In this document: piece by piece, positions 13,101 to 16,100 of the stretch
How the letters are laid out: every line of letters starts with the position of its first letter
How positions within the stretch are numbered: the first letter of the stretch is position 1
Source of the DNA: Amoebidium appalachense
Taxonomy: Eukaryota > Protista > Ichthyosporea
Assembly (NCBI GenBank): GCA_963693365.1
Contig: CAVNZM010000001.1
Location: forward strand, 15,486,418-15,550,417
DNA length: 64,000 bases
Direction: 5' to 3'
Position numbers and translations under genes: made by a program
The notes under the pieces: model-generated
What the model saw: only the letters and a program-made list of their open reading frames with translations
The model's database searches: none
Told to the model about the DNA's origin: nothing

Positions 13101-16100
13101 ATCCTCGCATTCTCTCCCACCTCTATTTAGAAGATTGTGATTTCGGTCTATATCCCAAGACCAGCCTTCAACTCAACCCTGCCGGTTCCTCCCCCTCTGT
13201 CCCCTACCTCGACTTGCATATCACCTGCACTAATCACGGCATTCACACAACCATCTACAACAAGCTCGACACACCCACGTTCAATACACTAGACATCGTT
13301 CGTTTCCCACATCACGACTCATTCATCTCCCGCACTGCAAAATACGGCATCATGACAAGTCAAATGCATAGCTACCAGCGCAAATGCTCCACACTTGCTG
13401 CATTCACCACATGCACTGCACGACTTGCTAAAACATTGCTTAACAAAGGCTACTCGTTTAGACTCTTGCACCACAAAATGCACAGCTTTCTCGCCACACA
13501 CCCGCACATATACCGTGGCGTTCACTCCTCTCACATACTCTCCATCATCACTAAAAAGATCAACACTCCCTAGTCCCCCACTCTATCCCGGTTCCCCCCC
13601 CCCCCCCCCCCCCCCCTCCCCCCCCTACCAGCCCCTACACCTCCCCCCCCCCCCCCCCCCCCTCCCCCCCCCCCCCTCCCTCTCTCTCTCCCTCTCTCTC
13701 TCCCTCTCCCTCTCTCTCCCTCCCTCTCTCTCTCTCTGTCTCCCTCTCTCGCTCTCTTTCGTTCTCTCTCGTTCTCTCCCTCCCTCTCTCTCTCTCTCCC
13801 TCTCCCCCTCTCTCCCCCTCTCCCCCCCCTTCCCCTCCCCCCCCCCCCCCCCCCCCCCCCTCTCTCTCTCCCCCCGCTCCTTTTCCCAAACAATTCCCCC
13901 GCCGTTCTTCTTTCTCAGCCGGCTAGGTTTTTTGGGTTGCCTGGTAAGTTTTGAAATGGAGGTCTCGTCTCTGATCTGTCCACCACAGGGTTTTTTTTTT
14001 TTTTTTTTTTTTTTTTTTTTTTTTTTTTTTTTTCCCCTCCCTCCCTCCCCTCCCTTCCCTCCCCCCCCCTTCTTTTTTTTTTTTTTTTTTTTTTTTTTCC
14101 CCCCTTCTCCTCCCCCCCCCCCCCCCCCCCCTTCCCCTCCTACCTTCTTTTTCCCCCCCTTCCCCCCCCCCCCCCCCCCCCCCCTGGCCAAACCCTGTAT
14201 ACACTCTTCTCATCAGCAGGTCTCTAACCCACTCTGCAGAACGTTTTACGCATTTCTCCCCTCGGAGAACTTGGTCGTTGGTGCGTTTTTGTCTGACATC
14301 TAACGACTCTGCAGGGTCCCCTGAGACTACTGACACTCTAACATTCCCTCCCCTCTCTTACTTCCCCCCCCCCCTCCCCCTTTCCCTCCTCCTTCCCCTC
14401 CCATTTTCTCTGCACACCCAACAGGTCTTAACCAGATCTGCACATCGTTAGTCACAATCTTCTCACATATATGAGAGAATGATCGTATTGGTACGATTTG
14501 TCTAATATCTGACGATTCTGCAGCATCCCTAAGACCCCCCTCCCCCTCCCCTCCCCTCCCCCCCCCCCCCCCCCCCCCCCACCTTCTCTCTCTCTCTCTC
14601 TCCCTCTCTCCCCTCTCTCTCTCTCTCTCTCTCTCTCTCTCTCTCTCTCTCTCTCTCTCTCTCTCTCTCTCTCTCTCTCTCTCTCTCTCTCTCTCTCTCT
14701 CTCTTTCTTTTTCCTCCTTTTTTTTTTTTTTTTTTTTTTTTTTTTTTTTTTGGCGCCTGTTGTTTTGCTTGTCATTTGTTGTTCTGGTTGATTACCTGTA
14801 ATCTTCGCTTATTTATGTGTGTGTGTGTGTGTGTGTGTGTGTGTATGTTGTGCGGGGTTGCACATACCGGTGTCTACTTTTCTTCTTACTGTTTTTCTCT
14901 CCACACACTTCATCTGTCCACTTCTGCATACCCCCTTTCATAGCTATAGACACACTTCACACATTGCGTTACGCGCACGCATGCACACACCGCTCTGTTG
15001 GCGACAGCTCCCTTGGAACCCATGCGGCATGTTACCCGCCGGCGTAACATAACTCGGACTATCGGTTTGGCTTTTTTCAAGCCCAAAGCAATGGGTGATA
15101 CCATATTTCCGGCTGACATCCGGGGGCATAGCTTTCCGTTCGAAGACGATAAAGTTCCGCCCTAGTAAGCGTGTTACTACCCTGCGGCGTGGGTCAAATC
15201 TCATATTTTCCCCTCTGATTACGAATTCTGTGGCCTTCGGGACTTAATTCTTTTCAGCTGGTGTAGTATGTTAGCCAGGGAAGTATCGACTTAGGTATCG
15301 ACGGGGGAGCTTCCTAGAAGCCCCGTCTCCTGAGTTCCTATCTATATTTTTCTTGCTTCTGCTTACTGCTGCAACTTTAACCCCCGGCCTTTCCCACTGC
15401 CCTTGCCTGCATAAGCAACCCTGCTCGTCTCTGATCAAGACGGGTGACCTACTCATGTTCAAGTGAAACAGTATCTGAGTTGGGTTTCGTTAACGAGGGG
15501 AATAGGTCGAAACTCGGGTACTGTGGATGACGTGGGCCCCCCCTGAGGATGGGCTCTGCTTATTATGCATACTCTTTATGTATGGCTTGCATTCTGCATC
15601 GTGTTATCCGTTTGTTCTTGTGTACTTCGTACTTTTTGACGCATTCAAAACCCCCCCCCCCCCCCCCCCCCCTCCCCCCCTCCCCCCCAAACCCCACCCT
15701 ACCCACCTGCCCACCCCCCCACCCTCCACGCCCCACCGGCCATCACAACCACCGTCACCACCACCTCGTCCCCCCCCCCCCCCCCCTCCCCCTCTTGGGT
15801 ACTCGCTCTAACCTTTGTCTCCCCCTTCCCCCTGCTTTCCCCCCTCCCCCTCACCCCCTCTTCCTACAGTGTAAACCGGCGCACGGGCAAAGTGGAGTAC
15901 ACGCTGACAGAGACTGTGCACTTCGATAGCATGTCTGCAAGTCCCATGCCCTCACGTGCTCATGAAAACAGGTGGGTGAGCTCGTGTTGCAGAGGGACAC
16001 GGACACGTGCACACACACACACACATGCATACGTACACACACACAGGCACATGCACATACACACACACACACACACATACACAAACACATACACACATGC

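What the first reader, a model, noticed from the sequence alone, without database searches (positions are those of the whole stretch)
15408..15565. Dispersed repeat encodes a candidate non-circularly-permuted (pseudoknotted) hammerhead ribozyme
Seen: three diverged copies (A 3494-3640, B 15408-15565, C 41978-42140) keep GUU, GAAA and CUGA(U/G)GA invariant while the helices change in pairs. Stem III is AAAGUAUGGG/CCCAUGCUUU (A), ACAGUAUCUGAG/CUCGGGUACUGU (B), GUCUGAG/CUCAGAC (C). Stem I, between the bases after GUU and those before CUGANGA, is GGG/CCC (A,B) and GGAG/CUCC (C). Stem II is GACCUA/UAGGUC (B), GACCC/GGGUC (C), imperfect in A. A closing helix AUAAGCA-A-CCC/GGG-CUC-UGCUUAT (B,C) places CUGANGA next to the stem II 5' strand. 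Established: type I/II/III hammerheads all read cyclically NUH -> CUGANGA -> GAAA, and PLE termini carry hammerheads. Here the order is NUH -> GAAA -> CUGANGA, which no circular permutation gives, so standard descriptors would miss it. Inference: the core forms by a double pseudoknot in cis or between two molecules, cutting 3' of 15481 (3556 in A, 42052 in C). From memory, rearranged hammerheads have been reported in a frog repeat. I do not recognise this architecture (stem II strand separated from CUGANGA by the open closing helix, plus a kink-turn), but novelty needs a literature check.
Basis: partly seen in the sequence, partly recalled or inferred. Interest (0 to 1): 0.92.

Follow-up and report, generated by a model that had tools for sequence, protein, structure and literature searches.

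The report
Split-core rearranged hammerhead in Penelope-type repeats
A repeat family in this eukaryote carries all the parts of a hammerhead self-cutting RNA in a scrambled order, with one catalytic strand split in two and a predicted kink-turn; the same layout sits at the tail of Naiad jumping genes reported to lack ordinary hammerheads, so it likely cuts these elements' transcripts, probably by pairing between copies, though cutting is untested.

Summary
Observation confirmed. Copies A, B and C keep the hammerhead core (14 of 14 positions identical, against 34 of 90 others) while the helices change in pairs. A fourth copy, B', has lost an A of GAAA. The order S-G-C is not new: type-SGC hammerheads are published and shown to cleave (Eckert 2023). 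What differs is that the stem II partner lies 5' of the cut site, so the backbone leaves the core between A9 and G10.1 into two extra helices, which that paper assumed does not happen. A standard kink-turn joins stem III to the helix that caps stems I and II. Copies end in poly(C), some are 5'-truncated, and family C occurs head to tail; a Naiad/Chlamys-type reverse transcriptase lies 1.8 kb upstream of B (link unproven). The same split layout is in locus L075, behind a full Naiad ORF, and by eye in 9 published Naiad 3' ends; 7 others hold intact type-CSG hammerheads. Only 1 of 103 fetched loci passed the strict descriptor. Rough geometry favours folding between copies. Cleavage is untested. 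This scan noted a similar motif before in two animal genomes.

The parts
15411..15563 (+). Copy B, whole motif, closed by outer helices 15411-17/15557-63 and 15419-21/15551-53
15424..15444 (+). Inserted hairpin between the closing helix and stem II; stem invariant in A, B, C; loop holds a 6-nt palindrome
15446..15451 (+). Stem II 5' strand (G10.1 = 15446), pairs with 15503-15508
   Evidence: weak Rfam Hammerhead_1 match 15446-15519 to model positions 14-38, E 2.1
15452..15467 (+). Helix P4 (15452-57 with 15531-36), then kink-turn: C helix 15459-61/15528-30, 3-nt bulge 15462-64, G.A and A.G pairs 15465-66 with 15526-27
   Evidence: kink-turn consensus recalled, not from a tool
15468..15484 (+). 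Block S: stem III 5' strand, GUU triplet 15479-81 (predicted cut 3' of 15481), stem I 5' strand 15482-84
15485..15502 (+). Linker between stems I and II with a 10-nt palindrome
15503..15524 (+). Block G: stem II 3' strand, GAAA 15509-12, stem III 3' strand
15540..15549 (+). Half block C: stem I 3' strand 15540-42 and CUGAGGA 15543-49
14887..15650 (+). Repeat unit that carries B, ending at poly(C); may begin further 5'
   Evidence: one contig covers 14887-15649 and another runs past 14860
20917..21252 (+). Copy B': 5'-truncated, between C-rich tracts, 97-98% identical to B, one A of GAAA lost (likely dead)
3494..3631 (+). Copy A: 5'-truncated at the inner closing helix; one mismatch in stem II; kink-turn at 3533-42/3603-09
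41980..42138 (+). Copy C motif; kink-turn at 42029-37/42100-05; predicted cut 3' of 42052
41850..42252 (+). Family C unit of about 400 nt between poly(C) runs; head-to-tail joins in other runs
   Evidence: joints 42250 to 41852 and 42250 to 41858 in one contig each of two runs
6286..6454 (+). A-family 3' fragment; its stem II strand pairs 5 of 5 with A's upstream strand
44672..44787 (+). Diverged 3' fragment with CUGAUGA, ending at poly(C)
41531..41641 (+). 3' fragment ending at poly(C)
61339..61413 (+). 3' fragment ending at poly(C)
12128..13573 (+). Stop-to-stop frame of a 5'-truncated Penelope-like reverse transcriptase, Naiad/Chlamys type, with an inverted piece of itself at about 12083-12289; candidate mobiliser, link to B unproven

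Best explanation
This repeat carries the full hammerhead core in the order cut site, GAAA, CUGANGA with the stem II partner 5' of the cut site, and it is likely a self-cleaving ribozyme that trims transcripts of Naiad/Chlamys-type Penelope-like elements, probably by docking between two or more copies. Shown by sequence: each copy can fold as a rod whose top loop shows the cut site, a stem I strand, a stem II strand and GAAA, and whose base junction shows the other stem II strand and the other stem I strand with CUGANGA; stem III and helix P4 join the two ends through a kink-turn consensus. Inferred: the top loop of one copy pairs with the base junction of another (a neighbouring tandem repeat or a second molecule) to form stems I and II; G12 and the G8 2'-OH then act as base and acid as in other hammerheads and cut 3' of GUU; the closing helix and hairpin are looped out between A9 and G10.1; kink-turns close the ring of copies. 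The product would be unit-length RNA for the element's reverse transcriptase, which inserts copies at (C)n.
For: Core identity 14 of 14 against 34 of 90; paired changes in stems II, III and P4; no variant row at a core position in contigs of four runs laid on C, listed from 1%, nor on B, listed from 3%. In run X20, 15450 T>C and 15504 A>G have like depth (1419, 1434) and would swap U-A for C-G in stem II (phase not shown). L075 holds the same layout (P0 6 bp, II 5, P4 9, I 5) about 1.6 kb behind a 969-aa ORF with N-terminal GIY-YIG, CxC and DKA. Nine Naiad 3' ends in the supplement of PMC8557442 show it by eye with unrelated stem sequences, and seven show intact type CSG. Types SGC and CSG cleave in vitro (PMC10085705). 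Poly(C) ends and 5' truncation match Chlamys insertions (PMC8557442). For docking between copies: with idealised helix rise and a 50-60 degree kink-turn, P4 ends at least 51 A short of the tip of stem II in one molecule; in the solved PK hammerhead, helix III, the central helix and helix IV are coaxial (PMC11300833); other Penelope hammerheads appear built as dimers (PMC4209133); family C occurs head to tail.
Against: No cleavage data; contigs cannot show RNA ends, and no listed run is on record as RNA. Stem I is only 3-4 bp and is G/C-only in A and B. Eckert et al. knew no insertion above 1-2 nt next to CUGANGA, so this break may cost activity. Only 1 of 103 fetched reverse transcriptase loci passed the strict descriptor, though 58 had 500 nt or more of 3' flank. 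No Chlamys passage seen in the supplement had the split form. The window's own ORF is separated from B by about 1.3 kb rich in simple repeats and no contig was laid across it. The geometry is a rough estimate, not a model. Minimum-energy folds pair the GUU loop otherwise.
Confidence: 0.52

Rival explanations
1. The same ribozyme folds and cuts within one copy: the kink-turn, perhaps bound by a 15.5K/L7Ae-family protein, bends stem III back so that the base junction reaches the top loop.
For: A kink-turn consensus is at the same place in A, B and C; single SGC and CSG constructs cleaved during transcription (PMC10085705).
Against: Gap of 51 A or more with 0-4 nt linkers (rough). A cephalopod-section Naiad has only about 5 bp on each side of its kink-turn-like loop (by eye). 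Eckert et al. note the same geometric difficulty for some SGC RNAs.
Confidence: 0.22
2. The fold is real but does not cut, or cuts only with a protein; it is kept as a binding or packaging signal for the element's reverse transcriptase.
For: Minimal Penelope hammerheads cleave poorly in vitro (PMC4209133); most fetched loci lack the motif; the inserted hairpin stem never varies in the window (7 of 7 pairs), as a protein site might.
Against: Every catalytic position is kept across distant lineages while stems are replaced, and sister Naiads carry the CSG form that is known to cleave.
Confidence: 0.15
3. It is an ordinary type-SGC hammerhead: stem II forms with the strand just 3' of CUGANGA after a 2-nt insertion, and the upstream pairing is incidental or an off state.
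For: A downstream partner can pair: 4 of 6 in B, 6 of 6 (three G-U) in C, 5 of 6 in A.
Against: It is weaker in B and C (-2.2 and -5.1 against -6.7 and -7.1 kcal/mol; in A it is -0.2 against +1.2). It is invariant while its partner changes, and the upstream strand changes with the partner. It is already used in the closing helix. In most of the Naiad examples no G follows CUGANGA, while the upstream strand begins with G.
Confidence: 0.08
4. A chance arrangement of short motifs in a GC-rich repeat.
For: Folding z-scores of A and B are unremarkable.
Against: 0 of 200 shuffles reach the descriptor score; the layout recurs in unrelated elements.
Confidence: 0.02

Closest known systems
Type-SGC hammerhead ribozymes (HRIMA-1 and variants) and type CSG; Eckert et al. 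2023, PMC10085705 (parts 1, 3, 4, 5, 6 of 8 read; figures and supplements not seen)
   Same: Non-circular block order; all core nucleotides; a fourth helix joining the far ends of stems I and II; stem I joined to stem II by a linker.
   Different: There block C is unbroken, with the stem II strand right after CUGANGA. Here that strand lies at the 5' end and two helices sit between A9 and G10.1. The linker is 18-22 nt with palindromes (typically 3 nt there); there is a kink-turn; the host is a eukaryotic retroelement repeat, whereas theirs came from metatranscriptomes and metagenomes.
Naiad/Chlamys Penelope-like elements; Craig et al. 2021, PMC8557442 (passages, section 9, and supplement passages read)
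   Same: Reverse transcriptase type, (C)n targets, 5' truncation, inverted 5' piece, tandem 3' ends. The authors flagged hammerhead cores that fit no descriptor (HHR_core, HHR_half_core).
   Different: They report no canonical hammerhead in Naiads and most Chlamys and propose no structure for the flagged cores. Passages read here show split-SGC and CSG folds in Naiad entries.
Minimal dimer-type hammerheads of Penelope elements (PMC4209133) and non-LTR retrozymes (PMC7229834); passages read
   Same: Hammerhead at the element's repeated end; short tandem units; action between copies proposed; palindromic loops.
   Different: Those are type I (circular order) and dimerise through stem III. Here stem III is long and stable, and stems I and II would be the shared helices.
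Pseudoknot (PK) hammerhead, Zhan et al. 2024, PMC11300833 (passages read)
   Same: A helix in the stem II position is formed with an extra strand and stacks between helix III and a fourth helix.
   Different: There A9 runs straight into G10.1 and the order is circular.

Membership tests
Hammerhead ribozyme | Core CUGANGA, GAAA, NUH, A15.1-U16.1, G10.1-C11.1 | tested here: met
   (A, B, C); B' lacks one A
Hammerhead ribozyme | Stems I, II and III flank the core blocks | tested here: met
   stem II imperfect in A
Hammerhead ribozyme | Site-specific self-cleavage 3' of NUH | not testable with these tools
   only contigs were available
Hammerhead types I-III (Rfam) | Circular block order; Rfam gathering score | tested here: not met
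   best Hammerhead_1 match 14.2 bits against 34, E 2.1, for B; none for C
Type-SGC hammerhead (Eckert 2023) | 5'-3' order S, G, C | tested here: met
Type-SGC hammerhead (Eckert 2023) | Block C unbroken: stem II strand within 0-2 nt of CUGANGA | tested here: not met
   strict SGC descriptor (0-1 nt gap) found nothing; a weaker partner after a 1-2 nt gap exists; covariation favours the upstream strand
Type-SGC hammerhead (Eckert 2023) | Helix joining the far ends of stems I and II | tested here: met
   P4, 5 of 9 pairs change on both sides
Kink-turn | C helix, 3-nt bulge, tandem G.A and A.G pairs, NC helix (consensus recalled) | tested here: met
   A, B, C; 3b.3n is A.G in A and B, U.U in C; bending and protein binding untested
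Naiad/Chlamys Penelope-like element | Reverse transcriptase of this clade, no C-terminal endonuclease, CxC and DK motifs upstream | tested here: met
   ORF ends after the RT; 9 of 9 long homologs checked have CxC and DK[AS]; no tree against named references was built
Naiad/Chlamys Penelope-like element | N-terminal GIY-YIG endonuclease | tested here: inconclusive
   window ORF is 5'-truncated; present in L075
Naiad/Chlamys Penelope-like element | Motif is the 3' end of a reverse-transcriptase-coding element in this genome | tested here: inconclusive
   same strand, 1.8 kb apart, simple repeats between; no genome held
Non-LTR retrozyme | Short head-to-tail non-coding unit | tested here: met
   family C joints in two runs, one contig each
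Non-LTR retrozyme | Type I hammerhead in each unit | tested here: not met
   order is non-circular
Non-LTR retrozyme | Abundant circular RNA | not testable with these tools
   contigs cannot separate tandem DNA from an RNA circle

The most novel reading that the evidence does not exclude
Naiad/Chlamys retroelements across eukaryotes use a hammerhead whose catalytic strand is split at A9/G10.1 and whose halves can only meet between copies, so that two or three rods close into a kink-turn-cornered ring, possibly clamped by the host 15.5K protein. The ribozyme would count copies: silent in a single unit, active in tandem transcripts.
Probability: 0.3. Interest if true: 0.92.

Novelty: new variant of a known kind. 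Interest (0 to 1): 0.78.

Why it matters
It would add a hammerhead topology that the six-permutation scheme excludes, and place non-circular hammerheads in eukaryotic genomes with a clear biological setting. It offers a testable answer to why Naiad/Chlamys elements, some with tens of thousands of copies, seemed to lack the ribozyme that other Penelope elements carry: descriptors searched only the circular order. The motif is about 155 nt and can be tested in days. A ribozyme that needs a partner copy or a kink-turn protein would be a natural switch of use in RNA engineering.

Tried and rejected
No whole genome is held, so no genome-wide copy count or covariance test. Rfam on the whole window listed 150 of 173 matches, none a ribozyme. 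The family pattern found nothing in viral contigs, nor did the RT alignment. Pfam gave 0 families for the RT frame. No RNA holder listed; two runs are only guessed to be RNA and one run gave 13,533 contigs on C; neither is used as evidence of expression or copy number. A relaxed descriptor gave noise, with L075 only tenth. A loose-descriptor hit at 19344-19500 scored 14.5, failed the strict descriptor and lies within the shuffle range: treated as chance. The 23 loci from prokaryote assemblies gave no hit. Nested dimer folding gains 11-14 kcal/mol but cannot represent the pseudoknots and was not compared with shuffles. In one search the stem I and B closing-helix registers were off; corrected. 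No other RT fragment lies next to A, B' or C. Literature: ten searches found no paper on a hammerhead broken at A9/G10.1 or on non-circular hammerheads in Naiads; the library lacks most subscription papers, and one 2026 paper cites variants with additional helices, one reference of which I did not identify. Passages of PMC3088659, PMC544870 and PMC10162972 showed no such insertion. Supplements of Eckert 2023 were not read and may hold related alignments.

Full report
Setting. The window is eukaryotic by its content: dense simple repeats and an ORF with PDZ domains at 53233-54096. No whole genome is held. The finding names three copies of a repeat; all are there, and a gapped pattern for the three core blocks matches exactly these three, with none in 100 shuffles. 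BLAST added a near-identical fourth copy B' and several fragments that hold only the 3' part, most of them ending at a poly(C) run.

Anatomy of B, 5' to 3'. Outer closing strands (15411-17, 15419-21); a hairpin (15424-44); the stem II 5' strand starting at G15446; helix P4 (15452-57); a kink-turn consensus; the stem III 5' strand ending in GUU (15479-81); stem I 5' (15482-84); an 18-nt linker; stem II 3' (15503-08); GAAA; stem III 3'; the second kink-turn strand; P4 3' (15531-36); stem I 3' (15540-42); CUGAGGA (15543-49); and the closing strands. C and A follow the same plan. The kink-turn (consensus recalled) is standard in all three: C helix, 3-nt bulge, G.A, A.G, then A.G (A, B) or U.U (C).

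More than chance. Core positions are identical in 14 of 14 cases, other positions in 34 of 90. Of 47 pairs, 12 change on both sides, 2 in stem II, 5 in P4 with the C helix and 5 in stem III; no column shuffle of 500 reaches this. The alignment has four related rows and misplaces one stem I pair, so this is support, not a statistic. A strict descriptor gives 27.5 and 25.5 for B and C, and at most 17.5 in 200 shuffles. Contigs of public runs laid on B and C list 29 and 36 variant rows, none at a core position. In one run two stem II changes of equal depth would turn U-A into C-G, though phase is not shown. Against: folding z-scores are modest, A has a stem II mismatch and B' has lost an A of GAAA, as decaying copies would.

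What is known. Eckert et al. 2023 (PMC10085705) split the hammerhead into blocks S, G and C, found types SGC and CSG, and showed cleavage at 0.004-0.19 per minute. Their scheme assumes CUGANGA is followed directly by its stem II strand. Here it is not. The only downstream partner is weaker in B and C, invariant, and used in the closing helix, while the upstream strand changes with its partner. Rfam's type I model, far below threshold, also aligns its stem II to 15446. Read as a circle the order is C-S-G, the non-circular class, opened inside block C, with a closing helix and a hairpin between A9 and G10.1.

Which element. A frame at 12128-13573 encodes a Penelope-like reverse transcriptase (651 homologs, best 36-38% identity). 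It ends after the RT, is cut at its 5' end by an inverted piece of itself, and 9 of 9 long homologs checked carry CxC and DK[AS] upstream: the marks of the Naiad/Chlamys clade. Craig et al. 2021 (PMC8557442) report that Chlamys insert at (C)n and (CA)n, are often 5'-truncated and tandem, and that Naiads and most Chlamys lack canonical hammerheads, though some hold cores that fit no descriptor. Family C shows head-to-tail joins of a unit of about 450 nt in two runs. The link between this ORF and copy B is not shown: 1.3 kb rich in simple repeats lies between them, so A, B and C may be short non-coding families moved in trans.

Elsewhere. I fetched 80 loci from metagenomes (best 80 of 481 confirmed) and 23 from prokaryote assemblies with the RT alignment. 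One of 103 passes the strict descriptor: L075, on the coding strand about 1.6 kb behind a full Naiad-type ORF, with closing helix 6 bp, stem II 5, P4 9 and stem I 5. 58 of the 103 had 500 nt or more of 3' flank, so the motif is far from universal. In the supplement of Craig et al. I read passages around short search terms by eye. Nine Naiad 3' ends show the split layout with closing helix, hairpin, upstream stem II strand and P4: the entries just before the headers Mley, 4_Chem, Aacu, Anas, 1_Movir, Dcar, Ovul and Omin, and one in part 12. By the file's order these include ctenophore, cnidarian and cephalopod entries. Their stems differ from each other and from the window, for example stem II GACACC/GGUGUC and GGCUCC/GGAGCC; three of the nine are near-identical to each other, and so are two more. 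The two cephalopod-section entries have a kink-turn-like loop in the opposite orientation. Seven further entries, four directly before nematode headers (1_Nbra, 2_Nbra, 3_Nbra, Hcon), one before Lpol and two more in parts 13 and 15, hold intact type-CSG hammerheads. The Naiad sheet has at least 54 rows; I did not read all entries, motifs broken by line ends were missed, and no Chlamys passage that I saw had the split form. These by-eye readings were not run through any tool.

How it likely works. Each copy is a rod: a top loop with the cut site and GAAA, and a base junction with CUGANGA and the other stem I and II strands. In the hammerhead fold stem III stacks under stem II (PMC4209133), and in the solved PK hammerhead the fourth helix stacks on the far side (PMC11300833). 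Here P4 and stem III are joined directly through the kink-turn. With idealised numbers a single molecule leaves a gap of at least 51 A that 0-4 nt cannot span (a rough estimate). Docking the top of one copy on the base of another removes the problem, and kink-turns could then close a ring of two or three. Tandem transcripts would supply the partner. Chemistry is inferred from other hammerheads (G12 base, G8 2'-OH acid). All three families also keep palindromes in the inserted hairpin loop and in the I-II linker; they may nucleate pairing, but I cannot place them in the model.

Odds. Real conserved hammerhead-type fold about 0.95; cleaves about 0.8; acts between copies rather than within one about 0.65 if it cleaves; belongs to a Naiad/Chlamys-driven family in this genome about 0.8.

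Novelty. Ten literature searches found no report of this split or of non-circular hammerheads in Naiads, within a library that lacks most subscription papers. After I had reached this reading, the scan's own index returned two earlier notes on rearranged hammerheads in Naiad-related repeats of two animal genomes; they are unchecked notes and are not counted as support. Nothing was on record for this genome or this sequence. Verdict: a new variant of a known kind, of high interest, awaiting a cleavage test.

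Noticed in passing
L004, L006, L008, L009, L012, L014, L072, 212-225 nt past the RT match (431 in L072); e.g. L009:6380-6480: One related family has S-G-C core order with stem III 6 bp and stem I 5 bp (L004 lacks the S block), but CUGAUGA sits in its own hairpin and an extra A precedes GAAA; stem II is unclear, with a palindromic loop. Possibly another split variant.
   Followed up: partly
PMC8557442 supplement, Naiad entries in parts 13-16: Seven Naiad 3' ends read by eye as intact type-CSG hammerheads, a type so far reported from two metagenome sequences only.
   Followed up: partly
window 15431-37, 42001-06, 3507-12 and 15487-96, 42060-69, 3567-70: Palindromes in both loops of all three families, with different sequences; one Naiad entry has the same UGGCC loop as copy A.
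   Followed up: partly
window 12083-12355: Long perfect inverted repeat at the 5' end of the RT frame, a 5' inversion typical of Penelope insertions; it causes the top Rfam false hit.
   Followed up: partly
window 53233-54099: Uninterrupted ORF with two PDZ stretches.
   Followed up: no
window 58411-59412: Weak chromodomain match (E 0.003) in a lysine/glutamate-rich frame.
   Followed up: no
window 6836-7643: Diverged tandem repeats of about 115-150 nt, 70-81% alike, unrelated to the motif.
   Followed up: no
run X10 on window 14860-15650: Differences are nearly all G>A and C>T (18 of 21 places), as a base-converted library would give; not used as variants.
   Followed up: no
L081-L103: Penelope-type RT fragments inside 23 loci of prokaryote assemblies, most likely eukaryotic contamination.
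   Followed up: no
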